This document shows positions 37,254 to 53,193 of a stretch of 64,000 nucleotides of DNA, piece by piece (position 1 is the stretch's first letter; the number at the start of each line of letters is the position of its first letter). The stretch covers positions 2,048,001 through 2,112,000 of the forward strand of contig OZ242318.1 of NCBI GenBank assembly GCA_965208105.1, read 5' to 3'. The translations under genes were made by a program, and so were the position numbers. The notes beneath the pieces were generated by a model. The model worked only from the letters and a program-made list of their open reading frames with translations, was not told where the DNA came from and did no database searches. This DNA comes from Candidatus Latescibacterota bacterium. GTDB taxonomy: Bacteria; Latescibacterota; UBA2968; UBA8231.

Positions 37254-37312
37254 TAACATCCTCGACCAACAATATGGAGTCATCTCATATGGTAGGAAAG
37301 GAGGGGATCAAT

Positions 37313-37495
37313 TTGATTATCGGACTTCCCAAAGAGATCAAAAATCACGAATACCGGGTAACGCTGACACCTCATGGGACAGCAAGCCTAGTCCGGGAAG
37401 GACATGAGGTCCTCGTTCAGGGTGGAGCAGGAGTCGGTAGCGGCTTTCCAGACGACCAATACCTGGGTGAGGGCGCGCGGGTCATCGACGGCCTA
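37313..37495 (+). pseudogene. ald: Alanine dehydrogenase N-terminal fragment
   Basis: IIGLPKEIKNHEYRV...GHEVLVQGGAGVGSGFPDDQY..GA, then diverges. Confidence 0.8.
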
Positions 37496-37639
37496 GAAAG
37501 AGTGGATACAATCCAACCCAACTCAGGAGGAGAAAGATGACCAGTACCTGATTGATCGCTGTGATCTTTGTCGGGCTGATGAGTGGCCCCGCCTTCGCGG
37601 CCGACGATCCCAGCATTTAGGGGACGACCCGGGCTGACG

Positions 37640-37800
37640 TGCAAGAGGCCGTGAAAGGGAACCGGTCTTCATGCGGCTACCCGGAATCCGCCATTCGTGG
37701 GCATCAATGTCGATCTCGTCCCACCTCGCACCTCGAGCCTCTCCGCTGCGCGCCGCAGTCAGGACGAGGAACTGAAGGCACAATTTCACCGATGAAGATG
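37640..37800 (-). pseudogene. Phage (P4-like) integrase fragment
   Basis: LQFLVLTAARSGEARGARWDEID...WRIPGSRMKTG. Confidence 0.75.
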
Positions 37801-38199
37801 CCCCGGACTCCTCGACGGTTCCCTGGGCCTTGGCGCTTTCCCGGTAGGGTTGCGCAGGGCCCGGTCCGGCATATTGCATCAGTTACGGGATTTTACGAAA
37901 CAGGAAGGAAACTACTGAAACGGGAAGGATGGTGCCGAGGGCCGGAGGAAAACCAACAACGTAGGCCAATAATTTACTAAATGATACAAATCCACCTTGC
38001 CGACTTTTCCCACAATTTTACCCACTAAATTGTCCTAATTTCCCGGATGCAAAGCGCCATTTTGCACAGCTTAGAAAATCCTAAAACCGCTATGTTTACA
38101 TATTGGAACTGTCCCACTAATATTTCGTCTAAGGATGTCCTAATCATTGCAACAAGTGGTCGTTTTACCCTCGAATGTGGAGTTACCCCGGTTTGGTGG

Positions 38200-38370
38200 G
38201 AGAAGTGGACCCCATTCTTTGGACAGCCAGGCAGCCTGATTAAGGTGGATTCCTTGTGGTTGATTTGCTGCCCTGTCCTGCTTTTTCCTGGTTTCTCTGA
38301 GGCCACCTTTCCGACTTGGCTGGAGGGCCGTTTTGCTGGTTGACGGGATAGACCACCCGGGCTTCAGCAC
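38200..38370 (-). mobile_element. Solo remnant of IS3-family right end
   Basis: About 160 bp, clearly similar to 39043-39210 including the IR (GGACCCCATTCTTTGGACAG). Confidence 0.75.
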
Positions 38371-38448
38371 AGCGCGGTAGCTATCCGCGCCCTCCATGTG
38401 GCTTATTCATTGGGGCTCCCGGCCTTCATTGCGATTTATTCTCTCGAG

Positions 38449-39018
38449 TCAAAAGCGGAGCTTGGCAACCGCGGACAAGCCGCCGTGGGACATAGGAGAC
38501 AAGCCAACGGATACGCGGCTATCTTCAGGGGGCCTGCGGGAATATTCAGACATAATCATAGCTCCTGCAATGTGGCCGACGAGAAGAGACGGCCACAACT
38601 CCTCGTTGCTGATCGTCAACGCCACAGCCGTTCCGAAGCCAGCCCAGCCGCCCGCCAATGCGTATAGGAATCGATCCGTTTTGTCTACGCTGCTTATGCC
38701 AAAGGACACTCCGGTCGAATATCCGATCAGAGTGCCCAATGCATATTCAGTTTCTATCCACTGACTAGGGTCGTTCTCGCCTAGGTTCCCTAGTCCAGCC
38801 CCAAGCATTGCGCCAAAGATCCCGAAAACAGATCCGGCAATCAACTTCACTGCAACTCGGTGGTGAGCGCTCGTCATTAGGCTGTCTATCTCATCGCCTT
38901 CAGCCTGCGCATTGTGGGGAGCTGCAAGCAGCATAATTGCCGTGAGAAGGTATTTAGTGCCTGAGACCACGATCCGCCTTCTTTCTGCTTTGCAAAATAG
39001 ACATAGCTTCTGTCCCAT
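38449..39018 (-). CDS. Hypothetical membrane/secreted protein
   Basis: Signal-like segment, Gly-rich hydrophobic helices and C-terminal ...AKLRF. Confidence 0.6.
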   Translation of the reverse strand: MGQKLCLFCKAERRRIVVSGTKYLLTAIMLLAAPHNAQAEGDEIDSLMTSAHHRVAVKLIAGSVFGIFGAMLGAGLGNLGENDPSQWIETEYALGTLIGYSTGVSFGISSVDKTDRFLYALAGGWAGFGTAVALTISNEELWPSLLVGHIAGAMIMSEYSRRPPEDSRVSVGLSPMSHGGLSAVAKLRF

Positions 39019-39042
39019 TTAATTCGATTTTCTATCAGGACA

Positions 39043-40435
39043 CATAGGTAGACCCCAATCTTTGGACAGCCTGGCAGCCTGATTAAGGCGGATTCATCGA
39101 GGTTGATTTACTCCCCTGTCCTGCTTTTTCCTTGTTTCTCTGACGTGTCCTTTCCGACCTGGCTGGAGGGCCGTTTTGCTGGTTGACCACCGGGATAGAC
39201 CACCTGGCCTGAGGCAAGGGTCCACAGCGTTTCTTCCGCGTTCATGCCGCTTTGCGCCCTGTGTAGGCCTCCATCGGCGTCCGGTTCCCCGCCAGGCTGG
39301 AATGAGGTCGATCTTCGTTGTAATACCGCAGCCAGTTCGCGATGGTCTGACGCGCCTGACGCCCATCCTCGAATTCGTGCAGATAAACACACTCGTATTT
39401 GAGAGAGCGCCACAAACGCTCGATGAAGACGTTGTCCCTCCATCGGCCCTTGCCGTCCATGGAGATCTCTACCTCGGCCTGCTCGAGGATCTCGATAAAA
39501 TCGCGGCTCGTAACCTGGCTGCCCTGGTCGGTGTTGAAGATCTCCGGTCGGCCGTAGCGCTCCAGCGCCTCCTGCAGAGCCTCCGGCAAATGGAGCTGTC
39601 CTGGGTGTTGGACAGCCGCCACGCAAGCACCGTGCGCGTCGCCCAGTCCATGACCGCCACCAGGTAAAGGAAGCTCTCGCCGAATCGGAATGTAGGTCAC
39701 GTCCGCACACCACACCTGGTTCGGCCGCTCGATTTTCAGATGGCGAAGACGATACGGATAGACCTGATGGGATCCATCCGGCGAGGAGGTCTGCGGCCGG
39801 CGGTAGATGGCCGTCAGTCCCATCTGTCGCATCAGGCGGCGTACCCGCTTGCGGCCCACTGGGTGCCCTTGGCGCCGAAGATGACGGACCATCTGCCGGG
39901 ACCCAACCCACGGCGTGGCCAGAAACTGCTCATCGATGCAGCGCATCAACTGCCGGTTGAAGGAACTTTCCCCGCAACCCGAGTAGTAATAGGTGGATCG
40001 AGACAGGGCGACCAAGGCGCACTGGCGCACGACAGGGAGCCGGGGATGATTCGGATCGATCATCGCTTCCCTCCGGTCTCGGCTCAACGACCCAAGGCGC
40101 GAGACAAAAAATCGTTCTCGACGATCAGTTGGCCGATCTTGGCGTGCAGCGCCTTGATTTCCGTCTCATGGTCTGCGCTGCCCCGAGAGGTCTTGCGGGC
40201 GAACACCTCGGGCAGGCTCTCCCTGGCCTGCCGCTTCCATTGCGCAATCATGTTGGGATGCAGGTGATGCTTGGAAGCGAGCTCGGCCATCGTCTGGTCG
40301 CCGACCAGCGCCTCCAAGGCGACTTTGGCCTTGAATTGGGCGGAGAAGCTAGGTCGTTTTCCCATGTCACCCTTCCTTCCGTAGAGGGGTTGGACCCACC
40401 TAACATAACTGTCCGATTTCCGGGGTCCACCTCTA
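39043..40435 (-). mobile_element. IS3-family insertion sequence (orfA 40084-40365, orfB 39242-40087, locally frameshifted)
   Basis: FSAQFKAKVALEAL; NDFLSRALG frameshift region; WCADVTYI, NTDQGSQ and DNVFIERLWRSLKYE; IRs at 39043-39069 and 40409-40435. The correct reading AVMDWATRTVLAWRLSNT is in another frame. Confidence 0.9.
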
Positions 40436-40456
40436 AGCGACACCACTTACAACGTT

Positions 40457-40860
40457 TTGGAAGTGGTGGAAAAAAGTGTGGATATTATATGGAAATGGGG
40501 GAATTATGGCCCTGAATACGATTTCAGGGCAGAAGTGGTCAATGTTTCCGATTTGGTTCTGACGGACCTTAAGATTTGTCTCTGCTTGTATAGAAAAACA
40601 GGAAAATCATGGCGTGCACTATCGAACGTCCCCGGACACGCTATCGATACGGGCACCCATCCCGACCGAGAATAGTCCACCCAGGGGAAACTATAACAAT
40701 CAGGGAAACATTCGATGTTCAGGATACGCCCTCAAATGAACAGCCCTTGTTCCCGGCCTACACATTTGAGTTCTCATACAGCATTGTCCCCCCTACAACA
40801 ATCAAAGCCACAAGCTGGGGAACCCTAAAATCGAGAAAGGTGGCCCCCTATGTCTACTGA
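40457..40860 (+). pseudogene. C-terminal remnant of a secreted protein ending in a TTIKATSWGTLK motif
   Basis: Two overlapping frames abutting the IS3 end. Confidence 0.45.
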
Positions 40861-41620
40861 AACTCTGGATGCAGGGCGTCTATACTTCGGAGACTGGCTG
40901 CAGGTCATGCGAGAAGATATTGCATCGGAAACTGTTGATCTCATCTACCTGGACCCCCCCCTTCAATTCCAAGCGTCTCTATAACGCCTATATCGGCGGT
41001 GCTCAATGGGTAGCTTTCACTGATACGTGGAGGTGGAGCGAAGCCATAGGCGACTTTGAAGAGATGGCTTCCCGCGTTGACATGGCCGACCTGATGGAAA
41101 GCTTGCGGACTATTTTGGGAGAAGGCCCCAATCTTGCCTATTTGTCCTACATGGCGAATCGGCTGTATGAATGCCGCCGCGTGCTCAAGGATACGGGCAG
41201 CATTTATCTCCATTGCGACCCCACCTTTTCGCACTATCTCAAGATAGTAATGGACAGGATTTTTGGGTGCGAGAATTTCAAGCGAGAAGTTGTGTGGAGC
41301 AACGAGGATCAGTCAGGCTTTAAATCCCTCGCCTCGAATTGGGTCAGGGGACACGATACACTGCTCTTCTATGCCAGGTCAAGAAAAAGCCTGAAATTTC
41401 ACAAACAATATAGGCCTCTGGACGAAAAGACAATAAAGCGATACGACAAAGTGGATGAGAAAGGCAAGAGATTTAAAATTTACAGAAACAAAGATGGGTC
41501 TGAAAGATGGGTCTGAAAGATGGGTTTACTTGAATGAAGATCGCGGCGCACCCATAGGGAGTGTGTGGTCTGATGTTCCTGGCTTTCAAAAGGAAAATAA
41601 TACAGGGGAGTATATTGGTT
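40850..41620 (+). pseudogene. N6A/N4C DNA methyltransferase (beta class), frameshifted and truncated
   Basis: MSTETLDAGRLYFGDWL...VDLIYLDPPFNS restored by removing one C from C8; GSIYLHCD; 13-bp duplication at 41490-41515; ends before the expected YPTQKP motif. Confidence 0.85.
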
Positions 41621-41897
41621 AGGGAATTATAAACTGTTGCCATTAATTTCCAACCTTGCTCCCGAGAGGAATCCCTCCCTGGGTTTCGGAAGTGTTCAAA
41701 CCCAAGTGCCCGGCAAGCGTCCAGGACGGACCTTCTCAACCGCCAATCGCTTTCTTACCATTCTTGCCTTTATCCCTACCTAGACCTTATGTATTGACGG
41801 GTATATGAAAGACCTCCTCCGATTTCGGTTTTCGGGGGTTATCTTTGGGAAAACTCAGTTCACCCAAAGACCTATCCCCAGCGAAAAGGAGGAGGCC

Positions 41898-43037
41898 ATG
41901 CGTAAATCTACGAAATTCGTCGCCTTGGACATACATAAAGATTCGATCACCGTCGCTCTTACCGGTGAGGGCCTCCAAGGGCCAAAGCTGTATGGAACGA
42001 TACCGTCTACGGGCGCTGCGTTGTCCAAGCTGGCGGGCCAACTGGCCCGTGGTGGGACCTCGTTGCGGTTTTGCTACGAGGCCGGACCCTGCGGCTACGG
42101 CGTCTACCGTCAGCTCACAGCCCTGGGGCACGCCTGCACGGTGGTGGCGCCCTCGCTGATCCCGCGTCGGCCGGGCGACCGCATCAAGACCGACCGCCGC
42201 GATGCTGTGTCTCTGGTGCGGCTTTTCCAACACGGCGAGTTGACCCCCGTGTGGGTGCCCGACGAAGCGCAGGAGGCGATGCGCGATCTGGAGCGCTGCC
42301 GGGAAGACTTCAAGCACGCCGAGCGCCGCGTGCGCCAGCGGCTGAACAGCTTCTTGCAGCGCCACGGCCGGATCTACTCCGGGCGCAGTCGCTGGACCCA
42401 AGCCCACTTTCGCTGGCTGGAGACCCAGCGCTTCGATCATCCGGCCCAGCAGATCGTCTTTCAGGAATACGTGGACGCGGTACAGGAAGCCCAAGGTCGG
42501 ATCCAGGGGTTGGACCAGGCCCTGCAGCAGGCGCTGGAGGGATGGTCTTTGGAAGGGGAGACGCGGGCTATGAGGGCGCTGCGCGGGGTAGACACGCTCA
42601 CCGCGGTTACGACCCTGGCCGAGCTGGGGGACCTCACCCGCTTTGACTCGCCGCGCCAACTGATGGCCTTCGTCGGTCTGGTCCCCAGCGAGCATTCCAG
42701 CGGCTCCCGCCAAAAGCGAGGGGCGATCACCAAGGCGGGCAACGCCCACGTGCGGCGCGTGCTGGTGGAAGCGGCCTGGTGCTATCGCTTTCCCGCCCGC
42801 AAGACGGCCGCCTTGCAACGACGCGCCGAACAGACCGCACCCGCCATACAGGCCATCGCCTGGAAGGCACAGAAACGCCTGTGTGGACGCTATCGACGGC
42901 TGAGTGGGCGAGGGATGCCGAAGAACAAGGTGTGCTGCGCGATCGCGCGGGAGCTTTTGGGTTTCATCTGGGCCATCGCCTGGGAGCAGAAACGCCCCGG
43001 CCGCCTCGTGGCCAGGAGACCTCGGATCGCCGCCTGA
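41898..43037 (+). CDS. IS110 family DEDD recombinase/transposase
   Basis: VALDIHK, YEAGPCG, IKTDRRDA, GLVPSEHSSG and AIARELLGFIWAI. Confidence 0.95.
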   Translation: MRKSTKFVALDIHKDSITVALTGEGLQGPKLYGTIPSTGAALSKLAGQLARGGTSLRFCYEAGPCGYGVYRQLTALGHACTVVAPSLIPRRPGDRIKTDRRDAVSLVRLFQHGELTPVWVPDEAQEAMRDLERCREDFKHAERRVRQRLNSFLQRHGRIYSGRSRWTQAHFRWLETQRFDHPAQQIVFQEYVDAVQEAQGRIQGLDQALQQALEGWSLEGETRAMRALRGVDTLTAVTTLAELGDLTRFDSPRQLMAFVGLVPSEHSSGSRQKRGAITKAGNAHVRRVLVEAAWCYRFPARKTAALQRRAEQTAPAIQAIAWKAQKRLCGRYRRLSGRGMPKNKVCCAIARELLGFIWAIAWEQKRPGRLVARRPRIAA

Positions 43038-43039
43038 TA

Positions 43040-43310
43040 AGCTCATCGTCTCAGAAGCCGGCATAGGACCTTTGCTCATGTAAATCGAAACGGGACAGAA
43101 GGGACCGGTCAGGAGAATCCTCGAAGACACTATGAGGCGCCTTTTCAGGCTGACCCTCGACCCTAGATTGAGGCCGCTCCGCGACGCACCCAGGACAGGC
43201 GGTAGCCAACCCGCGAATATCAGTCGGATCAACCGTCGCTACAGCGTCCCTTCTGTTGCCGAACAAACTATGCAAAGATAACACCCGAAACGACCACCCC
43301 GGAGAGGGTT
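43040..43310 (+). ncRNA. Putative bridge/seek RNA
   Basis: Non-coding end of an IS1111-type element; contains ATATCAGT (also at the right end) and CCTAGA (also at the left junction). Confidence 0.55.
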
Positions 43311-43559
43311 GACAACCGTCAATACATATCAGTGTTGTGTCCTGCAAATAACTTCAATAATTGGAGGGCGCTGAAAGCGTCCATTCTCTCTAGTATTTCA
43401 AAAATTCGGCGCCGCGAAATAATGCAAGGAATTTCCAGGACGCAACACTAGTCTCGAATTTAGAGGCAAAGTCCCCTTTTTTTCGTACTGGACAGACGGA
43501 CTGTAGTGCCTTTGGCCAGGCCCCGATAGCGTACCTTGCGATGGCCCCAAAGGTGCTTG

Positions 43560-44006
43560 ATGACCCCACTTCCACGCTACTACGCACCCATCCGCCACCC
43601 TCTCGTCGGTCCCCTTCCCGGTGTCTCCGGTTATAGGACCTACCCTGCTCCGGCGGTTTCGCGCCGGGACGAGGAGGGCTTCTCCAGTTGCTCGGCATGT
43701 CCTTGCCATCATGCCGTCGCTGCCACCCCGCCGAAGTAAAGCAGCCGTCTCATTCAGCCTTCGGCTGCCCATGCTGCCTTCGCCGTACGGTTGTCGGCTC
43801 GGCCTTCGGGGCTTCGCATTTTCGGGGCCATCTCTGCGTTCACTTTCGTTACGGCCCGATGACTCGCAGTCTCCCCAGGGAGACTCTGTCGATAGGCTTC
43901 AGGATGTTGGTTTCCCGCCACCCTGCTATCCAAGCTACGGGGCCGCTGACTCCTACCCCGGCAGGACTGTCCTCCTGGTGAACATGCCAGCCTTCGCTGG
44001 ACACAC
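43560..44006 (-). mobile_element. Group II intron 5' fragment (DI-DIII), inserted in domain V of another intron
   Basis: Starts GTGTGTCCAGCGAAGGCTGG directly after ...GTCCGGTT; typical AACTGGAGAAGCCC and GGCGGATGGG..CGTAGTAGCG segments; no RT. Confidence 0.7.
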
Positions 44007-44495
44007 AACCGGACATGTGACTCTCGGCGCATTCGGCTCTCCCCATATCCACTCCTATATGTGGCACCTAATCTCCCGTCCACTGGTGCAGCTCCAATTG
44101 CATCCCTCGTACCCGGGACACGGGCACTTCGAGGTCGGGCCACGGTGCGCCCATGTTCATCAGCGACCTCCATGGTATTTGTCGTTGCTGGGAATACGCT
44201 GTTGGGTCCTTCGCCATGTGACCGGCTTCCCCGGCCTCGAACTACTACGACCCCTCCGCCACCTCCCCTCGGTATCGACTTGCGACGAGCCTTCCCGCCG
44301 GTCCGCTCGCGAAGCGGGTGGAGGTGGGGCCGCAGGGAAGGTTCCCACGTTAACTGTCCTACCGTTCGACAGGGGAGGTACCCAACTATGCCTCTGCGGT
44401 ATCGCCACGGCTACGCCGAAGGCTTTCACCGTGGCCTCCCTACCGGCGACCTTTACCCGGCACAGGAGTTCCCAGCACCATTCAAGTCACCGCAC
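44007..44495 (-). mobile_element. ORF-deleted group II intron (GTGCG start to domain V)
   Basis: 5' GTGCGGTGA; 30-aa RT N-terminal remnant MNMGAPWPDLEVPVSRVRGMQLELHQWTGD* (44068-44160); DV GAGAGCCGAATGCGCCGAGAGTCACATGTCCGGTT. Confidence 0.75.
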
Positions 44496-45013
44496 AGGGG
44501 GCGACCTCGACAAAGGCCTGCGGGATGCCGCCCCAGCCGACGTAGAGGGAGAGTTTCTGCTTCTCCTCGGGGTCGGCAGCCGGTGGTTTTCGGCAGGGCT
44601 CTCGCCCTTCAGAGGGTTGGGTGCGGGTCCCCGAGGTTCGGATGTTCCTCCTCGCTCGGGAGAAATATCTCCTGATTCGCCAGTTCGTCCGCCGTCTCGT
44701 GATTCGCTCCGTTCGCCCTCGCGCGGTAATACACTTTGGCCGCCCTCTCCTGCGCCCTCACCACCATCGGCACCAGCTGGCCGTCCTTCTCCAGCTCCCG
44801 GCACATCTTCGGTCGGGCCTCCTTCCACTGCTGCAGGGCCTTCCAGCCCCGCCCGATCAGCTTCTCCCTCGTGTCTTCTTGCTCGTTCATCTCTCTCCTC
44901 CCGCCTGGTAGTGGTCGTTTCAATCCACGCCCCCGCACGGGGGGCGACTTGACGAAGCTGACGGTTGATGGACTGATTGACGTTTCAATCCACGCCCCCG
45001 CACGGGGGGCGAC
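44490..45013 (-). CRISPR. Type I-C mini array: two full repeats (44917-44948, 44982-45013), a 33-bp spacer and a partial third repeat (44490-44505)
   Basis: Repeat GTCGCCCCCCGTGCGGGGGCGTGGATTGAAAC; AT-richer leader 45014-45198 next to cas2. Confidence 0.9.
44609..44890 (-). CDS. Small MGE-type (TnpV-like) protein located between CRISPR repeats
   Basis: AGGAG RBS; MNEQEDTREKLIGRGWKALQQWKEARPKMCRELEKDGQL...; family assignment by resemblance only. Confidence 0.55.
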   Translation of the reverse strand: MNEQEDTREKLIGRGWKALQQWKEARPKMCRELEKDGQLVPMVVRAQERAAKVYYRARANGANHETADELANQEIFLPSEEEHPNLGDPHPTL

Positions 45014-45198
45014 TGTTGCAAGTTAATTCCTTGCGTACCAACACAAAAATTGCGCCACTGCGCGAACCACCAACTGGTGTTTTAGTTTCGCTAGCTACCG
45101 GCACTATCGTGACTCGAATCCCTTTAAGTTCCAATAAGTTATATAGTGCGCGGACCTCCCCGTGTTTACCTGACCGCTTGTGGTTCGCACCAGCCTTC

Positions 45199-45489
45199 TC
45201 ACACAATCAATGTTCCGTTCAAGTCGGTGGCCGGCTTGGCACCGATGTGCTCTACACGTCGCTTCCCATTAGCACCGAGAAAATAATACCTGAGACTGTC
45301 GGTTTCCGGATTGATGATCGCCTCAAGTTGGACCTTCAAGGCGGCCCATTGCGCCGGCTCCACCTCAATCTCGAACACTGAAAACTGCACTCTTTGTCCA
45401 AAATCGCGACAGGTCTTAGCGACACGTCGTAAACGACGTGCGCCGCCATCGGATGTCGTCGAGACATCGTACGTAACGAGAACCATCAT
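45199..45489 (-). CDS. cas2: CRISPR-associated endonuclease Cas2
   Basis: MMVLVTYDVS...GQRVQFSVFE...DSLRYYFLG. Confidence 0.97.
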   Translation of the reverse strand: MMVLVTYDVSTTSDGGARRLRRVAKTCRDFGQRVQFSVFEIEVEPAQWAALKVQLEAIINPETDSLRYYFLGANGKRRVEHIGAKPATDLNGTLIV

Positions 45490-45551
45490 GGTTGTTTGTT
45501 TTTTCTTCCTCGCGGATACGGCTGTCGTTTAAGAGGGTATGTTGAGTAGCC

Positions 45552-46586
45552 TTATTTCCATAACCACGGCGGGTGGGCGTCTAAGTCACCTCGAAGATGC
45601 CGAGCCAGCAATTGCGCTTGGAGATATGGAACCAAGCCGAGTGGTGCCTGCTCCCCAAGAAAAGGATGACGGCGCCCTACACGCTTTCGCTCCTGCCAAG
45701 CACTGAGAACGGTCTTGCGAGCGGCATCGCTCATTGAAACGCTGCCGCCTTCTCGGATTTGGAAGTCTTTAGCGCGTACTTGCCGACGATTGACTAGCGA
45801 TAGCGCGAGCCGGTCAGCCAAGACTGGCCGTAGCTCTTCCATAAGGTCTAACGCCAGACTCGGACGGCCGGGACGATCTCTATGAAAGAAACCCACGGCC
45901 GGATCCAAGCCTACGCTCTCGGCGGCAGAGTTGCAGTCGTGGACGAGAAGGGTATAGAGAAATGAGAGCAGGGCATTCACAGGGTCACGTGGTGGCCGAC
46001 GGTTGCGGCCAGCAAATGCCATCTCTGGTTCGGGTACGCGGATCAGGAGACCAAAGACCGAAAAATAGAGCCGTGCGGCCTCGCCTTCAAAACCTCGTAG
46101 CCTGTCAATACTGTCTTGGCCGTCGCTGATGCGTTGCACAATCTGCCGCAGACGATTCGTCGCGACGGACATAGCTTCGCAGCTAGAAGACTCAAGTTCG
46201 TCGCCATAGTCACGCTGTGCTCTTTGCAGGACGCTTCTCTGATTAGCGATCTTGCCGACGAGAATGCTGCGGACGATTTCTTCCGGTGTGTCGCTGGCTC
46301 CATACTGTGCACGACGCAGCAGTACATTGCCAGAAACTGGTCCCTCGACTCGGGCTTGGAATCGGCCGAATCGACTTAGGAGTACTAAAACGATGCCACC
46401 GGCAGCACATGCTTGGATCAGAGGTGGAGATATATAGATGCTGCCGAACACCACCACGGACCCAAGCATGTGGAATGGCACCCTCACACGTTCCTCGCCC
46501 TCTACTTCCGCGACCAGATTCTCGCCGTCCTTGGTCAGACGTGCTTCAGGCGTAGTAACGTATAGCGTATTGAGCAATCGCCTCAT
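45552..46586 (-). CDS. cas1: Type I-C Cas1
   Basis: MRRLLNTLYVTT; LRGFEGEAA; RNRRPPRDPVNALLSF; DLMEELR. Confidence 0.97.
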   Translation of the reverse strand: MRRLLNTLYVTTPEARLTKDGENLVAEVEGEERVRVPFHMLGSVVVFGSIYISPPLIQACAAGGIVLVLLSRFGRFQARVEGPVSGNVLLRRAQYGASDTPEEIVRSILVGKIANQRSVLQRAQRDYGDELESSSCEAMSVATNRLRQIVQRISDGQDSIDRLRGFEGEAARLYFSVFGLLIRVPEPEMAFAGRNRRPPRDPVNALLSFLYTLLVHDCNSAAESVGLDPAVGFFHRDRPGRPSLALDLMEELRPVLADRLALSLVNRRQVRAKDFQIREGGSVSMSDAARKTVLSAWQERKRVGRRHPFLGEQAPLGLVPYLQAQLLARHLRGDLDAHPPWLWK

Positions 46587-46588
46587 GG

Positions 46589-47221
46589 TTATTCTCCAGG
46601 CTCGACAAGATGCGATGCTAGAGTACGCGTTCGCCAAGCGAGAACCGAACGCTCCATTGCCTTCGGGCGACACTGGTCGAGCAGAGAACAGCCACGGCAC
46701 TTGGCCGCTTCATATTCGGCTGGGGGAGTGCAGCCTTGTGCAAAGAGTGCGGCAACCTGCTCGACGGTCGTCTCGGTCAGGGCGCGGAGTGCGGCGTCAA
46801 AAGACACTTCTTTCCGCCGCTTGGTTTGGCTGTAGTAAAAGGCCCCCATCGGCACCTCTGTACCGGTCAATTCTTCAAGGCACAGTGCCTGAGCGCAGAG
46901 TTGCACCTCGTCGGCTCGATGCACTTTGGCCTTGCCGCGTTTGAACTCGACCGGGAACGGGGTCGTGCCTGTCCGGCTTTCGCGGAATTCAACCATATCG
47001 GCGACGCCTGTAAGATTGAGCCGGATGCTGTAGATCGGGAGTGACATCACCTGACGCACACTCGCCTTGCGCCGGTGCCCTGCCTCGTCAATGACTTGAT
47101 GTAGCACCCGACCTTCGGCGGTAAACCGATTTTCCTCCCAAAGCCGTTCTAATTGGATCAGAGCGCATTGTCTCATACAGTACACCGCATGTTGCAGAGC
47201 CGACACGGGTATTGACTCCAT
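46589..47221 (-). CDS. cas4: Cas4
   Basis: SALQHAVYCMRQ, GVADMVEF, PVEFKRG and CRGCSLLDQC. Start may be further upstream. Confidence 0.95.
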   Translation of the reverse strand: MESIPVSALQHAVYCMRQCALIQLERLWEENRFTAEGRVLHQVIDEAGHRRKASVRQVMSLPIYSIRLNLTGVADMVEFRESRTGTTPFPVEFKRGKAKVHRADEVQLCAQALCLEELTGTEVPMGAFYYSQTKRRKEVSFDAALRALTETTVEQVAALFAQGCTPPAEYEAAKCRGCSLLDQCRPKAMERSVLAWRTRTLASHLVEPGE

Positions 47222-47329
47222 TCTATGCTCTGATCCACGCACCTGCACAGGAGGAGCTCGCCCGGACTGTGTTTCACTCATCGTCATATCCACTCTGTTT
47301 GTTTCATTCAATGTCCCGCACGAAGGCAG

Positions 47330-48274
47330 TTATGAGATCACCTCGATGGCCTCGACATTTGCTGGTATATCGTCTAAGTCGAGTTTCACGCGATAATCGG
47401 CAAAACTGCGAGCAGGCGGCAGGATGCTTTCGCTGCCATTCGTTTCTGTACGCTTCACACTTACCCTCTCAAAAAGCCTATGCGCGGGCGCGTTGCCCAA
47501 GGCACTAGCGTGCTTAAAGGCAATGAGCCGACGGGCAACCATTTCGCCGCGAGCAGCCGAATGGTCGTGCTCAAACATTTGCGTCAGGGAATCCCAGAGA
47601 ACATCGAGATCATCCGGTGAAAAGCCGGTGCGCTCGGCGAGCTTGGCGGATACAAAACCGTGCGCCCTATATAGCCCGTAGGGCACAATGTGTTTGCGGC
47701 CCATGGTGCGGTGCTCGATTCGCTCGTCGCCCTCGTTTGCGTCGTTGGTCTTTCCGCGCTCCTCCTTTTCCTTCTCGTTAGTCGCTGCCATGCGCGTAAT
47801 GGACACTTCGAGTGGTACGATCGGATCAATGGACCGCGCAAAGGTCAGCTGTACTGGGCCGCGTACTTGGCCACAGTTGATACCCATGCCCATTACCGCA
47901 CCGAAGACGCGCACATCAAAGAAATTGTTGCACATGAACCTACGCAGGGAGTCCATTTCCGCGTCGTTTTTTGGGCTTAGTTTCTTGCTGCTCTCGACAT
48001 TCTTGTCATTAGGACGCACAACTTGATACGCCTTTCGGTGTTGCTCGTTGAGCACAGCACCTTCTTGGACGTAGATCGCATAGCCGGACTCGTCGCCTTT
48101 TGCCAGCTCAACGAAATTGCGTATTTTGCGCTTGAGGCAAACATCCGTAACCAAACCGTGGTTGGTTTCCGGGTCGAGGCGCGGGAGGTTTCCCGCATCC
48201 GGATCGCCGTTGGGATTGCCGTTGTTGACGTCGAACAGATAGACGAAATCATAGCGGTGGTTAAGTGCAATCAT
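47330..48274 (-). CDS. cas7: Type I-C Cas7 (Csd2)
   Basis: NGNPNGDPDAGNLPR, TDVCLKRKIRN and GRKHIVPYGLY. Confidence 0.97.
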   Translation of the reverse strand: MIALNHRYDFVYLFDVNNGNPNGDPDAGNLPRLDPETNHGLVTDVCLKRKIRNFVELAKGDESGYAIYVQEGAVLNEQHRKAYQVVRPNDKNVESSKKLSPKNDAEMDSLRRFMCNNFFDVRVFGAVMGMGINCGQVRGPVQLTFARSIDPIVPLEVSITRMAATNEKEKEERGKTNDANEGDERIEHRTMGRKHIVPYGLYRAHGFVSAKLAERTGFSPDDLDVLWDSLTQMFEHDHSAARGEMVARRLIAFKHASALGNAPAHRLFERVSVKRTETNGSESILPPARSFADYRVKLDLDDIPANVEAIEVIS

Positions 48275-50082
48275 TCTTCGTTCTCCTTTTCTTCTTTTTT
48301 GGTGAAGAAAGCGTTTTTCTGGTGGTAGTAGCCAATGGCGAAGAGTGCTTGACGCTCCATCGTAAGCGTTGGCACAAACAGCTTCTCGGGTGTGGAGCAT
48401 TCGTAAATTTGGGTGATGTCCCGGTCAAGGCGAATCTCCGCCCCTCGACTTTTTGGGTCCTTCCGAAGTTTGGCCAAGTGGTTCATGGCGTTGCGTTGCA
48501 AGATAGGAAATACAGAACGCGGCGTGGCCGAAGCCGCCCCATAGTACTTATCGCGTATCGTGGCGTTGACATTGCCACCGAGAGCTTGCCTTTGCGCGTG
48601 CTCAAAGCAAGAAAATAGCCGACCAAGCAAGTAGCCAGGATCGACGTTTGTAGGATCAAGAGACACGAGATCATCCTCCTTTGTTGAGTTTCCAGCCGTG
48701 CGCCGATCGCGGCAAACCACGGCTTTGAGTAAGGCTACGCGCAGGTCCGTTATGGCTTTGTCTGACCGCAGGCGCATGAGAATCGTAGATAACAAGGTCT
48801 GCGGATAGGAACGACCCGTCAGGATGGCGCGCAGCATCTCCCCAGCGAGTTGGGGAGGGATATGTTCGTATGGGTTTTTCACCTTCGTCGTGGCGACCTC
48901 ACGTAGGCAGCGCCGAACGCTCGGCTGCTCTTGGCGTGGCGGCGGGTCAATACGCATATCCCGATAGTGCCAGAGGATATGCTCTGCAATCGTCGCAAAG
49001 TCGTCCTCCAGCCAGAAGCGAATCGAAATACGAGCTGCATTGGGGGCCAATCCCAACACATAAAAGCGCACACCTTGGGGCAAATCTGGACGGATTTCCT
49101 CCATGGGGCGGCCTCTTTTTATTTTTTCGAGGATAGTCTTGATGGCCTGCTCGCTTATTTCGTCGTCTGCGTCATTAGCGTCATTGACGGCGAAGGAAAA
49201 AATGGCCTCGCATTGCGCCTCGGCTTCTGCATCCGAGGCAACAGCCCAGAATACAGTCGAGGCGTCGCCGAGTTGGACTTTGTTTTCGTTGGTACGGAGA
49301 AAGTGGTTGAGCACAGTTGTATAGGCGGCGGCAGCATCCTCACTTACAGGCGCATTATCGCCCTGTTTATGCCCATACGACTCAAAGGCATCTAGATTGA
49401 AAGAGACGATGGACGCGCCGGCAGACTGTGCGCCACGCACCCCCTTGATCGAGGGATGCAAACGGGCGATAGGGGATAGATCTCCGGTCACCAAGCAGAC
49501 GGCTTGGCCCGACTCGTGATCCTGATTCATCTGCGAGGACCAGAGTTGACGTGCGGCCTCGCGGTCATGTATGAAGTTGTGCTCTCCCTTCAACCGGAAC
49601 ACCACATTGGCCCCCTTCATTTCATCTGGCCAGCCGAGGGCGTCGAAGTACTCTGGCTTCCACCATTGCAGGAAACGATAACAAGCCACAAGTCCTGCGT
49701 CGCTATCGTTTTGTAGGGCAAGGTGCCTGTTCTGAAAAGCCTCGTACTGGTTTTTCACCCGCTCGGCACGTCGCTCTCTGGTGTCTGGGTCCTCGCCTTC
49801 CAAGTCTTCCATAGCACCAAGCGCATACGACGCCTTGTCCCAGAGGAAGCTCGGCAACAGCGTTTTACCCGCCCGCTTTTCTGGTCGCGGAACTGAGTAT
49901 CGCGGGGCTACAGGTTTCTTCCCTGAGTGGTCTCGTAGGTCCATAGGCTGACCGTCGGGCTGGCCATCGGCTTTCAGGACGACGCAATAGTCGATCCCCT
50001 GGTCGGAATAGCCGATGGGCGGTACTTTGTCCTCTTTCTCGAGCCGGTGATAGGCTCGCTCAAGAGAAACTAGAATGCTCAT
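48271..50082 (-). CDS. cas8c: Type I-C Cas8c (Csd1)
   Basis: CLVTG, IVSFNLDAFESYG, GYLLGRLF and QALFAIGYYHQ. Confidence 0.96.
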   Translation of the reverse strand: MSILVSLERAYHRLEKEDKVPPIGYSDQGIDYCVVLKADGQPDGQPMDLRDHSGKKPVAPRYSVPRPEKRAGKTLLPSFLWDKASYALGAMEDLEGEDPDTRERRAERVKNQYEAFQNRHLALQNDSDAGLVACYRFLQWWKPEYFDALGWPDEMKGANVVFRLKGEHNFIHDREAARQLWSSQMNQDHESGQAVCLVTGDLSPIARLHPSIKGVRGAQSAGASIVSFNLDAFESYGHKQGDNAPVSEDAAAAYTTVLNHFLRTNENKVQLGDASTVFWAVASDAEAEAQCEAIFSFAVNDANDADDEISEQAIKTILEKIKRGRPMEEIRPDLPQGVRFYVLGLAPNAARISIRFWLEDDFATIAEHILWHYRDMRIDPPPRQEQPSVRRCLREVATTKVKNPYEHIPPQLAGEMLRAILTGRSYPQTLLSTILMRLRSDKAITDLRVALLKAVVCRDRRTAGNSTKEDDLVSLDPTNVDPGYLLGRLFSCFEHAQRQALGGNVNATIRDKYYGAASATPRSVFPILQRNAMNHLAKLRKDPKSRGAEIRLDRDITQIYECSTPEKLFVPTLTMERQALFAIGYYHQKNAFFTKKEEKENEE

Positions 50083-50738
50083 CGCAATACCTCCGGCGAA
50101 CTGGGAGAGGGAATTTCGACAACGCCCTGTTTCATCTCGGCCCAAAAGAAGAGCGGCTGTCGCTCGTTTGCGTGGTCAACATCCAAGAGCATCCAGCCCA
50201 AGTCGCGGCTTTCATCAATTGCCGGCGGCAGGTCGTCGTTCTCAATGAGTGTGTAGTCTGCGACAAATTCTCTCGTTCCGAGACAGGGCTGGTGAAAGCA
50301 CTGCCCGTTCCTAGCTCGGCGATTGAAGATGTCGAGATGCTTGCCCACGTTATCGCTTTCACTCGCTTCGTCCGTTAGGTCAAAGTGCGCTTCAATAGCG
50401 TAATCTACCTCGACTAGAACGGTGGCGGAGCGTTGCTGGCGATCATCCTCAATCTTGGTGTACAGGGTTTCAATGGATCCCTTGTTTTTTGCTGTGCGGA
50501 CGGTCCCCGTGGGAATTTTCTTACCGACTTCGTTGCGCCGAATTGACTGGAACTGAATTGGTTTGAGGACGTGAATACGGTCAATGCGCCAGACGATAGC
50601 CGGCTTCCAGTGAATGGCCTCCAAGATGCCGCGTGCCGCCGAAGGTGTCATTACGTCGTAAGACACTCGCTCGACCTTCATTTCCGGCCGAGTGAAACAG
50701 GCGTATCTGCCTCCCACCCGCAGACGTACTCCAAACAT
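50079..50738 (-). CDS. cas5: Type I-C Cas5 (Cas5d)
   Basis: ACFTRPEMKVERVSYDVMTPSAARGILEAIHWKP. Confidence 0.97.
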   Translation of the reverse strand: MFGVRLRVGGRYACFTRPEMKVERVSYDVMTPSAARGILEAIHWKPAIVWRIDRIHVLKPIQFQSIRRNEVGKKIPTGTVRTAKNKGSIETLYTKIEDDRQQRSATVLVEVDYAIEAHFDLTDEASESDNVGKHLDIFNRRARNGQCFHQPCLGTREFVADYTLIENDDLPPAIDESRDLGWMLLDVDHANERQPLFFWAEMKQGVVEIPSPSSPEVLR

Positions 50739-50801
50739 GGACTAACTCCTTTAATACGGTAATATGGTATTTCGATGCCTCCCGCAGGGAGGCCCTCATC
50801 A

Positions 50802-53023
50802 TTATATCAGCATCGCTTCACTGCCGATCGCATCCGCATCTTCCCAAAGAAGGCCAACATCTTCTCGATAAAGGCTCTTAGTTAGAAGAACGGCAAATTG
50901 ATCGCCGAGGCGTTCTCGTTCCGCAAAATTTACGTGAATATTTTTTACAAGTTGTTCCCGGAAGCGAGGAAAAACTTGCACAATATAAGGCTGGAGCCGC
51001 CGTGCCGCCGTGCCACCCTGCCCAGCCGTTTAGAATCAGCGAGATCACGAACGGCCTTACACGCTTCCTCTTCTCGGGCAACGATCACCGGCTCAAGTCC
51101 GCTCTGGATCAGACGAAACGTCTCGCCAACCTCTCGGAAGGAGAAAGAAGTGCCGTGCTTACTCATCTTGAACTTTTTCAAGAACTCATCGCCAAGCCCT
51201 TCTCCTTTGCGCCAGTACACCTCTTGGAAGTAGTCTTCCATAGCCTCCGGTGACAGCAGGTCATCGTGGCGACCCGTGATGCGCTCCATATCTCCGGCGA
51301 GTTGGCTCAACTCAGCCGGACTGGAATGTTCCGCTGGCCGGAACACGGTAACGATACTGTCTGCAATATCTCGTCGTCCCTCCCTATTGCACCGCCCGGC
51401 GGCTTGAGCAATCGAGTCAAGCCCTGCTTCGGCCCGCCAAACCCTCGGAAAGTCCAGATCAACACCCGCCTCAACCAGCGAGGTAGCAATCAACCGGCAC
51501 GGCCTTCCTGCCTTTAACCGCTGACGCACATCCGCAAGAATGCGGCGGCGATGCGCTGCGTATTGCCGCGTACTCAGATGCACTACGCCATCAATGTCTG
51601 CTTCACACGCTTGCCGAAAGAGGTCCAAGGCGTGTTTCCGACTGTTGACAATAACCATGCCTTGCGCCGTTTGCGCGAGGGTATCGCATAGGCTCTCGTC
51701 GGTGAGTATGCCCTCGTTGGAGATAGTGACGCGAGCGAGCTTCTGGTGCAAGAGCGGCGGGTCAGGTGCGAGTTCGTGGACTTGGACGAAGCCCCCTTTG
51801 AATTCAGGTGCCTTGAGTGCCGGTTGGGTCGCGGTGCAGAGTACGATGGATGAGCCATAGTTGCGAGCCAGTTCCTCGAGGACGGCAACCGATGGCCGCA
51901 GCAAGTGCAGCGGGATGGTCTGCGCTTCGTCGAGGACGATGACCGCACGAGCTAGATTGTGCAGCTTACGGCATCGCGATGGCCGATGGGAGAACAGGCT
52001 TTCAAAGAGTTGGACATTGGTGGTCGCGACGATGGGAGCGGCCCAGTCCTCCATGGCGAGCCGCAATTTTTCGGCACCCTCCCGCTGTGTGAATTTGGTT
52101 TCGTCAATCGCCGAATGGTGTTCGAGGGCGACACCCTCCCCCAGCACATCGCGGAAAATCTCCGCAGTCTGATCAATCACTGAAGTAAAGGGAATCGCAT
52201 AAACGATGCGATCAAGCCCGTGTGCTTTGGCATGATCAAGAGCAAAGGCGAGGGAAGTCAGCGTCTTGCCGCCGCCGGTCGGGACATTGAGCGAGAACAA
52301 GCCCGGAGGGTATTCTGCTTGAGTCCGAACATGCTCCAGAATTTCGCGGCGCAGGCGATTGACCTTACCTATGCTGGCAAGTCCGGTGAAGTGATTATTG
52401 AGTCTATCACATAGCTTATCAACTATTTCGGGAACCACGGGCCAGTCACGGTCAATGGTCTCACCTTTTGCGACAGCGTAAAAGCGTTCGGTGTCGCGGA
52501 AGTCTGCATCAACAAGACACGAGAAGATCATCCGCGTCAGGAAGGAAAGCGAAAATGCTCCGCGATCAGGAGTTATGGTAAAATTTTTTGGGAAGAGACC
52601 GGATACGTCAGGCTCAATTTCTGCCCTCCAGTCTAAAGCAAGGGGATCGAGTGTCTTCTTTAGCCGTTCATCAAGCGAATCAAGCGTGCCGGTATTGCTG
52701 TGCATATCTGGGAGGCCAGCGTGGTGTCCGGCGATGGCATAAGCAATGAGTTGCCCCATTGCCCGATCCTTATTGGTTTCTGCCAAAGTATTTACCAATT
52801 TTGCTCCGGCAGTCGCGTGATCAACCACAGGGCCGCCGTGTAGGCGCTTTTGGAATGCTTCTGTGTACTTGCCAAGATCGTGCAAAAGCCCAGCCAAGCC
52901 CACGGCCTTACCGGCTCCAAACTTGGCACCTAGTGCCTCCGCCTCGGCCTGAACCTTAACTAGGTGCTCCTTTAGTGGCTGCCATTTTTTTTGGTGACAT
53001 TTTAGGGAATGTGCATAGTACAT
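50802..53023 (-). pseudogene. cas3: Cas3 HD nuclease-helicase, C-terminus frameshifted by an 8-bp tandem duplication
   Basis: HDLGK, PTGGGKT, DEAQ and QAAGRCNR. Removing one GCCGCCGT copy (50996-51011) restores VARRLQPYIVQV...LYREDVGLLWE...* ending at 50802. Confidence 0.9.
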
Positions 53024-53193
53024 TCTATGTCCTTATTCATCCTATTCAAGACTATTGACCTGCCCCCACGAATGGTGCCAACTACTTGTATCTTCCAAAT
53101 GGGCTGAAGAGGCTTGCCTCTTGGGCAGGAAGTCCTACGGCGCCGGAGGAAGGTCCAGTAGGACTGATCTTCCAACCTTTACATCATGCACTG

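What the first reader, a model, noticed from the sequence alone, without database searches (positions are those of the whole stretch)
44506..44916. 411-bp 'giant spacer' carrying a whole gene inside the CRISPR array
Seen: precisely between repeat 2 and the partial repeat 3 lies an RBS plus a complete 93-aa ORF, co-oriented with the leader. It is followed by a fragment reading ...PEEKQKLSLYVGWGGIPQAF, which resembles the N-terminal motif of large phage/ICE methyltransferase-helicase (DarB-like) proteins. Normal I-C spacers are ~33-37 bp. Inference: aberrant Cas1-Cas2 capture of long MGE DNA, or recombination between spacers and their target. Either way a foreign gene could be expressed from the leader; an anti-CRISPR or regulatory role is speculative.
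Basis: partly seen in the sequence, partly recalled or inferred. Interest (0 to 1): 0.75.

Follow-up and report, generated by a model that had tools for sequence, protein, structure and literature searches.

The report
Mobile-element gene stuck inside CRISPR array
A 411-base piece of a mobile genetic element, carrying one intact small gene, sits where the last spacer of a shrunken type I-C CRISPR array should be; it looks like a scar of recombination with an invader, not a spacer captured by the adaptation enzymes.

Summary
On the minus strand a complete type I-C cas operon and a 185-nt leader are followed by repeat 1, a 33-nt spacer and repeat 2. Then come 411 bp (44506-44916) and a degenerate repeat remnant (44505 to about 44480). 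That remnant is the best non-array match to the repeat in the whole 4.85-Mb genome. An independent short-read contig spans 43889-44945 without a difference, so this is not a misassembly.

The 411 bp are mobile-element DNA: a GGAGG ribosome-binding site, an intact 93-aa helical ORF, and about 25 codons of a DarB-like methylase that has no start. The ORF is a remote TnpV-like protein. Distant homologues of it sit directly upstream of DarB-like methylase genes in three related genomes.

What follows repeat 3 is debris: a group II intron lacking about 270 nt of its 5' end, a second intron piece and IS elements.

One diverged homologue (84% identity, on another contig) has an N-terminus that translates the same I-C repeat. 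The repeat-ORF junction is therefore heritable or recurrent.

Most likely an invading element recombined with the array and the product then decayed. Cas1-Cas2 capture is unlikely but not excluded. There is no evidence for an anti-CRISPR role. Interest is moderate.

The parts
45199..53032 (-). Type I-C cas operon: cas3 (50948-53032), cas5d (50082-50741), cas8c/csd1 (48271-50145), cas7 (47330-48400), cas4 (46589-47311), cas1 (45552-46700), cas2 (45199-45489)
   Evidence: Pfam hits, all far above cut-off: Cas2, Cas1, Cas4, Cas7, Csd1; Cas5d and Cas3 HD/helicase.
45014..45198 (-). Leader (185 nt) between the cas2 stop and repeat 1
   Evidence: Sequence. No sigma-70-type promoter was found by the consensus scan.
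44982..45013 (-). CRISPR repeat 1 (32 nt)
   Evidence: Predicted to fold into a 7-bp hairpin of -15.1 kcal/mol (folded on the identical repeat 2).
44949..44981 (-). Spacer 1 (33 nt), the only normal spacer
   Evidence: No convincing self-target in the genome. The best partial hit is a 13-nt seed at genome position 4322806 without a TTC PAM.
44917..44948 (-). CRISPR repeat 2 (32 nt, identical to repeat 1)
44506..44916 (-). The 411-nt 'giant spacer': mobile-element DNA (GC 64.5%, against 55-57% for the cas region)
   Evidence: Unique in the genome. Covered without any difference by a 1057-nt short-read contig.
44897..44901 (-). GGAGG ribosome-binding site, 6 nt before the ATG
   Evidence: Read from the sequence. 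The block GCGGGAGGAGAG is compatible with the back-translated upstream part of P0002 (inference).
44609..44890 (-). Intact 93-aa ORF (stop included): small all-helical protein of a mobile-element family, a remote TnpV-like relative
   Evidence: Translation. One close homologue, P0002, at 84% identity. A profile search finds 883 representatives at E<=1e-3. Of 59 family members, 27 hit Pfam TnpV PF14198, but the ORF itself does not. The AlphaFold model has five helices and pLDDT 78.
44506..44583 (-). Fragment (about 25 codons, no start codon) of the N-terminal motif region of a DarB-like / N6-adenine methylase-helicase gene
   Evidence: blastn to phage 'DarB-like antirestriction' genes covers 44583-44513. 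Motif alignment. Relatives have about 130 nt between the small ORF and the motif, whereas here there are 38 nt.
44480..44505 (-). Repeat 3 remnant: 15/16, then 6/10 identical to the repeat (21/26). The 3' part and the hairpin are lost.
   Evidence: Its first 16 nt are identical to a natural repeat variant in relative G070.
43984..44487 (-). Decayed ORF-less group II intron copy lacking about 270 nt of its 5' end; degenerate D5-D6 at 44041-43984
   Evidence: 81-85% identical copies occur in G001, G018 and G022. Their D5-D6 score 59-61 bits, against 18 bits here. The true 5' end of this intron family lies about 345 nt upstream of an anchor that is only about 70 nt below 44494 here.
43560..44013 (-). 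Second group II intron-derived segment (Rfam group-II-D1D4-4 at 43844-43980)
   Evidence: RF02003 at 107 bits. Two more copies in the genome at 95% and 92%.
41805..43037 (+). IS110-family transposase gene, part of the debris island downstream of the array
   Evidence: Pfam Transposase_20 and DEDD_Tnp_IS110.
37523..41516 (.). More mobile-element debris: N6_N4 DNA methylase ORF (40869-41516, +), IS3-type rve transposase (39245-40165, -), weak phage-integrase fragment (37523-37879, -)
   Evidence: Pfam. Ordinary chromosomal genes begin below about 37000.

Best explanation
The 411 bp are a whittled-down piece of an invading mobile element's anti-restriction module. The module is a TnpV-like small gene followed by a DarB-like methylase-helicase gene. 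The piece now occupies the position of the oldest spacer of a collapsed type I-C array, between intact repeat 2 and a degenerate third repeat.

I think it got there by DNA recombination between the array and the element, using homology that the array offers: a spacer matching the element, or a repeat carried by the element. I do not think it came through spacer acquisition. Later events cut it down. A deletion removed the methylase start, and the distal array was lost, leaving repeat 3 fused to a 5'-truncated group II intron and IS debris.

Shown:
- the anatomy;
- the mobile-element origin of the stretch;
- that repeat 3 is a real repeat remnant;
- the contiguity of the assembly;
- the existence of the same repeat-ORF junction in a second, diverged contig.

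Inferred:
- the recombination mechanism and the order of events;
- that the intact ORF, which has a good ribosome-binding site and is co-oriented with the leader, is read from the pre-crRNA transcript. Cas5d would cut in repeat 2 but not in repeat 3, because repeat 3 has lost its hairpin.
For: - Repeat 3 is the top non-array match genome-wide and lies 411 nt from repeat 2 on the same strand.
- Homologues of the ORF in G008, G026 and G059 sit directly upstream of DarB-like methylase N-termini. The stretch is therefore one contiguous piece of a conserved gene pair.
- blastn links the fragment to phage DarB-like genes.
- The family overlaps Pfam TnpV, a mobile-element protein family: 27 of 59 members match. 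One homologue matches the C-terminal part of a giant phage-protein profile, phrog_938.
- The methylase piece has no start and is about 92 nt closer to the ORF than in relatives, which points to decay.
- The intron after repeat 3 is 5'-truncated and degenerate. IS110, IS3 and integrase remnants follow.
- The insert has 64.5% GC, against 55-57% in the cas region.
- Relatives with the identical repeat have spacers of 32-43 nt, with rare intervals up to about 70 nt, in 389 intervals of six arrays. A ruler-based acquisition of 411 nt would be unprecedented there.
- P0002 contains SPPVRGRGLK, the exact frame-1 translation of the repeat. It starts with MK as expected from TTGAAAC of a preceding repeat 66 nt upstream.
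- The assembly is supported by zero-difference contigs.
Against: - Both borders of the stretch lie at, or within a few bases of, the repeat-spacer boundaries. At most 12 nt on the left and 6 nt on the right are of unassigned origin. That is what a true spacer replacement would give, whether by Cas1-Cas2 or by a double crossover at two spacers. It is awkward for random insertion plus deletion.
- For the two-spacer version, no TTC PAM precedes a 30-41-nt protospacer ending at the right border.
- No source element was found in plasmids, phages, GTDB genomes, JGI metagenomes or IMG/VR. Contiguity and the PAM at the source could therefore not be checked.
- No repeat-like sequence lies next to the distant homologues of the ORF, so an element-borne repeat is not shown.
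- The DNA of the P0002 contig could not be read.
- There are no expression data.
Confidence: 0.5

Rival explanations
1. Site-specific integration. A family of integrative elements uses the I-C repeat as its attachment site, as phage PhiAP1.1 does with type II-A repeats. The TnpV-like gene is the excision-factor-like gene next to attL. Repeat 2 and repeat 3 are the hybrid att sites, and most of the element was later deleted.
For: The same repeat-ORF junction occurs in a second contig at only 84% protein identity, which fits recurrent site-specific insertion. TnpV of Tn4451 was postulated to act in excision (passages of PMC3158075). Repeat 3 carries a C-to-T variant at position 10 that repeats 1 and 2 lack. 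A weak integrase fragment lies at 37523-37879. Precedent for prophage integration into repeats comes from the abstract of 10.1101/2020.10.09.333658.
Against: An internal deletion would have to end exactly at the start of repeat 3. No other repeat fragment exists between 36500 and 44480. Distant homologues of the ORF are not next to repeats. The shared junction can equally be common descent.
Confidence: 0.15
2. Illegitimate insertion of a larger element into the last spacer (or loss of the array's end into neighbouring mobile DNA), followed by deletions. The near-exact borders are then coincidence.
For: The whole 37-44.9 kb region is a graveyard of IS, intron, methylase and integrase pieces. 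A relative (G021) also ends its array in a repeat cut at nt 23 next to foreign-looking coding DNA. Insertion of elements at fixed positions in spacers is known for Tn7-like transposons (abstract of PMC11837452).
Against: At most about 18 nt of the stretch could be left-over spacer, whereas 33 are expected. The start of repeat 3 is intact. The same left junction is present in P0002.
Confidence: 0.15
3. Aberrant Cas1-Cas2(-Cas4) integration of a 411-bp fragment into a one-repeat array, followed by one normal acquisition (spacer 1).
For: Both borders coincide with repeat boundaries. The array has exactly three repeats, as two successive acquisitions starting from one repeat would give. cas1, cas2 and cas4 look intact.
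Against: Spacers in 389 intervals of related arrays are 32-43 nt, rarely up to about 70. No source or PAM is known. The fragment shows internal decay (the methylase start is missing), which a fresh capture would not. I recall no case of a fragment this long being integrated in cells; this was not searched.
Confidence: 0.07
4. No third repeat at all. 44490-44505 is a chance match, and the 411 bp are simply the mobile DNA flanking a two-repeat array.
For: Only 21 of 26 positions match and the 3' half is gone. The array-specific 3' handle (ATTGAAAC) is absent.
Against: It is the single best non-array match in 9.7 million positions and lies within 450 nt of the array on the same strand, which is of the order of 1e-4 by position alone. 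Its first 16 nt equal a natural repeat variant of the family. The neighbouring intron does not explain these bases: relatives match only 6 of 16 there.
Confidence: 0.08
5. Assembly artefact joining array and mobile DNA.
For: Repeats and multi-copy intron or IS pieces are classic causes of misjoins.
Against: A 1057-nt de Bruijn contig with 0 differences spans 43889-44945 in two runs. The genome is a single 4.85-Mb contig.
Confidence: 0.02

Closest known systems
[quoted passage not shown]
   Same: Mobile-element DNA ends up inside an array, bounded by repeats, and can remodel or cripple immunity (abstract of 10.1101/2020.10.09.333658).
   Different: Here only 411 bp remain and no integrase is linked. 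The system is type I-C. The distal repeat is degenerate, and no att-site homology was shown.
Spacer-protospacer recombination between phages and CRISPR loci (Varble et al. 2019, recalled; one search found only papers that cite it)
   Same: Short spacer homology lets invader DNA recombine with the array. This would explain borders at the repeat-spacer boundaries.
   Different: That work concerns transduction of CRISPR loci in staphylococci. A gene-sized piece fixed in a spacer position was not what I recall from it. The PAM check at the right border failed here.
Transposons and IS elements inserted in CRISPR arrays (for example Tn7-like elements that target arrays)
   Same: Foreign DNA at a fixed place in a spacer region of an array (abstract of PMC11837452).
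   Different: No Tn7 genes are present. The insert is a gene-pair fragment without transposition functions. The IS and intron pieces lie outside the repeat-bounded stretch.
Element-borne mini-arrays, solitary repeat units (Racr) and cr-like RNA mini-arrays
   Same: Repeats next to mobile-element or regulatory genes, and arrays of one spacer (search listing and abstract starts of PMC10651486, 10.1101/2023.03.03.530964 and PMC6858448).
   Different: Our two intact repeats follow a full cas operon and leader. Repeat 3 has lost the hairpin. Spacer 1 has no partial target near the locus.
TnpV (Pfam PF14198) and the small genes that accompany DarB-like / polyvalent methylase-helicase proteins
   Same: A small helical protein encoded on mobile elements. 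Relatives of the ORF precede DarB-like genes.
   Different: The ORF itself does not reach any Pfam threshold. The function of TnpV is only postulated (PMC3158075 passages). The 'polyvalent protein' concept is recalled, not read here.

Membership tests
CRISPR spacer (type I-C) | Lies between two repeats of the array | tested here: met
   Repeat 2 is intact. Repeat 3 is a 21/26 remnant and the best non-array match in the genome.
CRISPR spacer (type I-C) | Length set by the acquisition ruler (about 32-37 nt) | tested here: not met
   411 nt. Related arrays with the identical repeat have 32-43 nt, rarely up to about 70, in 389 intervals.
CRISPR spacer (type I-C) | Source protospacer flanked by a TTC PAM | not testable with these tools
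   No source element was found. For a hypothetical right-hand spacer no TTC is present.
CRISPR spacer (type I-C) | Processed into a crRNA by cleavage in both flanking repeats | tested here: inconclusive
   Repeat 2 folds into the 7-bp hairpin. Repeat 3 does not and lacks the ATTGAAAC handle. No RNA data were laid.
Type I-C CRISPR-Cas locus | cas3, cas5d, cas8c (csd1), cas7, cas4, cas1, cas2 plus a 32-nt ...ATTGAAAC repeat | tested here: met
   Pfam hits. The same repeat forms arrays of 27-118 units in relatives.
TnpV (PF14198) | Significant match to the Pfam model | tested here: inconclusive
   The ORF gives no hit at E<=0.01. Of 59 profile-search relatives, 27 hit TnpV, best E 4.2e-7. The Atlas gives only a low-ranking TnpV-bearing cluster at score 0.82.
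DarB-like / N6-adenine methylase-helicase | N-terminal ...Y.GWGG..QAF motif | tested here: met
DarB-like / N6-adenine methylase-helicase | Complete methylase and helicase domains in one open frame | tested here: not met
   Only about 25 codons are present, with no start. The frame ends in repeat 3 and the intron.
Group II intron | 5' GUGYG end, domains I-VI, catalytic D5 | tested here: not met
   The copy after repeat 3 lacks about 270 nt of the 5' end. Its D5-D6 scores 18 bits against a 40-bit cut-off. A D1-D4 piece scores 107 bits. It is a remnant, not an active intron.
Anti-CRISPR protein | Inhibits a Cas effector; usually next to an aca regulator on a mobile element | not tested
   No anti-CRISPR library was on hand. 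The PDB fold search gave nothing at E<=0.001.
Solitary repeat unit / Racr | Element-encoded repeat mimic with an intact hairpin | tested here: not met
   Repeat 3 has lost the hairpin. No repeat lies next to the distant homologues. The exact repeat is absent from IMG/VR.

The most novel reading that the evidence does not exclude
The TnpV-like gene is a heritable cassette at a spacer position of type I-C arrays. There are two versions. In the first, it marks a family of integrative elements that use the I-C repeat as attachment site, with the TnpV-like protein acting as their excision factor next to attL. In the second, it is a foreign gene that lives off the CRISPR leader promoter, and its mRNA 5' end is made by Cas5d cleavage in repeat 2. 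Either would explain why an intact ORF with the same repeat junction is kept in two lineages that differ by 16% in protein sequence.
Probability: 0.12. Interest if true: 0.7.

Novelty: new variant of a known kind. Interest (0 to 1): 0.4.

Why it matters
Arrays are usually read as clean records of past infections. This locus shows gene-sized invader DNA fixed in a spacer slot, with an intact ORF placed to be transcribed from the CRISPR leader. The array itself has shrunk to one working spacer.

If the repeat-ORF junction proves recurrent, it would point to mobile elements that target I-C repeats, or to genes that exploit crRNA transcription and processing. If it is only a recombination scar, it is still a useful caution for spacer-calling pipelines. 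It is also an example of how arrays decay.

Tried and rejected
1. I first read GTGCGG at 44494 as the 5' end of a group II intron, with repeat 3 being 10 exon bases plus the intron. I rejected this. Multi-copy relatives show the true 5' end (GTGCGCC..., or GAGCGCC... in L012) about 345 nt upstream of a conserved anchor that here lies only about 70 nt below 44494. The relatives match only 6 of 16 bases under the repeat remnant. No exon-binding pairing specific to this site was seen by eye.

2. Regulatory mini-array (cr-like RNA) idea. Spacer 1 has no partial target with a TTC PAM near the locus. The best hit is a 13-nt seed elsewhere with AAC. Dropped.

3. Searches for a source or close relatives of the ORF found nothing:
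- JGI metagenomes: 183 pattern hits, none confirmed.
- GTDB genomes: 96, none confirmed.
- IMG/VR: 71, none confirmed.
- PLSDB plasmids: none.
- The exact repeat is not in IMG/VR.

4. A protein search with the 41-aa methylase fragment against longer proteins gave 2 candidates, none scored.

None of the best 120 of 7141 Cas2 hits showed a 2653-bp longest contig. This is inconclusive, because clusters hide shorter contigs.

6. Fold search of the ORF model against the PDB gave no match at E<=0.001. The top hit was 2apl at E 0.69. PHROGs and NCBIfam gave nothing for the ORF itself.

7. The promoter and terminator scan of 44300-45300 found nothing.

8. Laid runs:
- Runs X5 and X10, and the more abundant relatives in X1 and X3, showed no contig over 44494-44919 at 80% likeness or more. 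Missing cover is not evidence of absence.
- The small-share runs held intron, leader and cas2 relatives only.

9. No further repeat fragment was found in 36500-44480.

10. My fetch for the G078 array missed it, with 1 repeat in L053, so that array is not in the spacer count.

12. Supplements of papers were not opened. Supplementary lists of solitary repeats and mini-arrays (PMC10651486, 10.1101/2023.03.03.530964) might hold I-C cases that bear on the novelty claim.
Full report
**Anatomy.** The window is bases 2048001-2112000 of a single 4.85-Mb contig. On the minus strand it holds a complete type I-C operon. The genes are cas3, cas5d, cas8c/csd1, cas7, cas4, cas1 and cas2 (53032 down to 45199), each with strong Pfam hits.

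After a 185-nt leader come the following:
- repeat 1 (45013-44982);
- a 33-nt spacer (44981-44949);
- repeat 2 (44948-44917).

These are the only full copies of the repeat in the genome, even allowing 6 substitutions. They are followed at 44505 by GTCGCCCCCTGTGCGG. This matches the repeat's first 16 bases at 15 of 16 positions, and ungapped the match is 21 of 26 down to 44480.

**Is repeat 3 real?** I scanned both strands of the genome. This site is the best non-array match for the 16-nt prefix; the next best are 13 sites at 14/16. It is also the best for the 26-nt prefix; the next best is one site at 20/26 (one search agrees). That the genome-wide top hit should fall within 450 nt of the array, on the same strand, is of the order of 1e-4 by position alone. 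Its first 16 bases are also identical to a natural variant of this repeat in a related genome, G070.

I first suspected that GTGCGG at 44494 was the 5' end of a group II intron, which would have explained part of the match. That reading is wrong.
- The sequence from about 44487 down to about 43984 is 81-85% identical to ORF-less group II introns in three related genomes. Their D5-D6 score 59-61 bits.
- Multi-copy members of this intron family show that the true 5' end lies about 345 nt upstream of a conserved anchor. Here the anchor sits at 44423, only about 70 nt below the supposed end.
- So this copy lacks about 270 nt of its 5' part. Its D5-D6 is degenerate (18 bits).
- Under the repeat remnant the relatives match only 6 of 16 bases.

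Repeat 3 is therefore a genuine repeat remnant fused to a truncated intron. It has lost the 7-bp hairpin and the ATTGAAAC handle.

**Is the assembly sound?** Logan contigs of 1057 nt in two runs of one sample cover 43889-44945 with no difference. They bridge the intron, repeat 3, the whole insert and 29 nt of repeat 2. The sample may be the one the genome came from, so this is an independent assembly rather than independent material.

**What the 411 nt are.** They begin with 26 nt holding GGAGG 6 nt before an ATG. Next is an intact ORF of 93 codons (44890-44609). After 38 nt, in another frame, comes ...AADPEEKQKLSLYVGWGGIPQAFVE, which ends at repeat 3.

- blastn finds the last part in phage genes annotated 'DarB-like antirestriction', at 79-81% over about 71 nt. 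The motif aligns with PEp14 and with a relative's methylase.
- The ORF has no Pfam, PHROG or NCBIfam hit of its own.
- A profile of the ORF and five homologues finds 883 cluster representatives at E<=1e-3. Most are small proteins of about 80-130 aa.
- Of 59 of these that I scanned, 27 match Pfam TnpV, best E 4.2e-7.
- TnpV is a transposon-encoded protein that was only postulated to act in excision (passages of PMC3158075).
- The model is a five-helix bundle with pLDDT 78. It has no significant PDB neighbour.
- In G008, G026 and G059 the homologues (29-39% identity) lie directly upstream of DarB-like methylase N-termini.

So the 411 nt are one contiguous piece of a conserved mobile-element gene pair. 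In those relatives about 130 nt separate the small ORF from the EEK..Y.GWG motif. Here there are 38 nt and the methylase has no start, so the piece has suffered a deletion. Its GC content is 64.5%, against 55-57% for the cas region.

**Surroundings.** Below repeat 3 lies only debris:
- the truncated intron;
- a second intron-derived segment (RF02003, 107 bits; two more copies in the genome);
- an IS110 transposase, an N6_N4 methylase ORF, an IS3-type transposase and a weak integrase fragment.

Ordinary chromosomal genes start near 37000. No further repeat fragment occurs in 36500-44480.

**Comparison with relatives.** The identical repeat, within 3 mismatches, occurs in 13 of 76 genomes of the family, this genome included. 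It is mostly found as arrays of 27-118 units. In six of these arrays I examined 389 inter-repeat intervals.
- Spacers are 32-43 nt.
- The few longer intervals contain a repeat that my pattern missed, or reach about 70 nt.

A 411-nt unit is thus far outside what this system's acquisition machinery produces. Truncated or degenerate terminal repeats next to foreign DNA also occur in relatives (G021, G088).

**A second instance.** The only close homologue among 5.8 billion clustered proteins is P0002. It has 138 aa, is 84% identical over all 93 residues, and comes from one 2653-bp contig. Its N-terminal extension contains SPPVRGRGLK, which is exactly repeat 2 translated in the ORF's upstream frame. 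It begins with MK, as TTGAAAC of a preceding repeat 66 nt upstream would read.

In that contig too, then, the gene follows at least two I-C repeats in the same orientation. About 62 nt separate the repeat from the start there, against 26 nt here. The first bases after the repeat and the GGAGG block are compatible with ours, but this is an inference from back-translation. The junction is therefore inherited or recurrent, not a private accident. I could not read that contig's DNA.

**Mechanism.** The borders of the stretch coincide with the repeat boundaries to within at most 12 nt on the left and 6 nt on the right. That favours a replacement of a spacer over a random insertion.
- Ruler-based Cas1-Cas2 acquisition is unlikely given the length, the non-leader position and the internal decay. 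It cannot be excluded.
- A double crossover at two spacers against the same element would fit. However, no TTC PAM precedes a 30-41-nt protospacer at the right end.
- Site-specific integration into repeats has a precedent (abstract of 10.1101/2020.10.09.333658). It would explain the shared junction, but it needs a deletion ending exactly at repeat 3.

I commit to recombination between the array and an invading element, followed by decay, as the most likely history (about 0.5). The rivals are ranked in the Rival explanations section.

Expression of the ORF from the leader is plausible from its orientation and ribosome-binding site. Cas5d would cut at repeat 2, and there would be no cut at repeat 3. 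This is untested. Nothing points to an anti-CRISPR function.

**Verdict.** It is partly unsupported: Cas1-Cas2 capture and the anti-CRISPR role have no evidence. The finding is a new variant of a known kind, mobile DNA inside CRISPR arrays. The conserved repeat-gene junction is its one truly intriguing feature.

Noticed in passing
window 43560-44013 (minus); genome 508820-509270 and 3131154-3131609: A group II intron-derived unit of about 450 nt (Rfam group-II-D1D4-4) occurs three times in the genome at 92-95% identity with the same ends. No D5-D6 hit was found within the 5.5 kb fetched around the other two copies.
   Followed up: partly
L015, L016, L021-L030 (G008, G021): A related intron is multi-copy (7-8 or more matches per genome). 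Many copies share 550-969 nt of identical upstream sequence, which suggests insertion at one position of a multi-copy gene. Two copies (L016, L027) reveal the true 5' end, GTGCGCCACGAGG.
   Followed up: partly
L045 (G021:C4:2146000-2147500): The array of this relative ends in a repeat cut after nt 23 and joined to coding-looking foreign DNA. This is another array truncated by mobile DNA.
   Followed up: no
L036 (G032) and L040 (G070): Single, solitary copies of the I-C repeat lie next to ordinary-looking genes. The G070 copy carries the same C-to-T change at position 10 as repeat 3 here, plus a second change. A sponge-metagenome contig (run X10) shows the same flank as G070.
   Followed up: no
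L052 (G016 array): Many repeats of this array have a one-base deletion in the C-run. Two inter-repeat intervals are about 65-69 nt, roughly twice the normal length.
   Followed up: no
genome position 4322806 (outside the window): The first 13 nt of spacer 1 match exactly, preceded by AAC rather than TTC. About 0.14 such matches are expected by chance.
   Followed up: no
window 44984-45600, runs X1/X3: The same sample holds more abundant relatives whose leader and cas2 are about 87-95% identical. Repeat-containing contigs reach very high summed depth, so strains with ordinary long arrays coexist with this one.
   Followed up: partly
window 45199-45489: Cas2 is 98% identical to that of a genome of another genus of the family (a cluster whose longest contig is 6.6 Mb). 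It is 76-82% identical to Cas2 proteins that sources name as Alphaproteobacteria. The I-C locus (55-57% GC against 61.6% for the genome) may itself be horizontally acquired.
   Followed up: no
window 40869-41516 (+): An N6_N4 DNA methylase ORF of 215 aa covers only part of the Pfam model (positions 8-132 of 221). It is probably another truncated mobile-element gene.
   Followed up: no
L005 1504-1758 (G059): This distant homologue of the ORF matches the C-terminal end (positions 2083-2159 of 2185) of phrog_938. That is a giant phage-protein profile labelled endolysin, which suggests the domain also occurs fused in polyvalent virion proteins.
   Followed up: no
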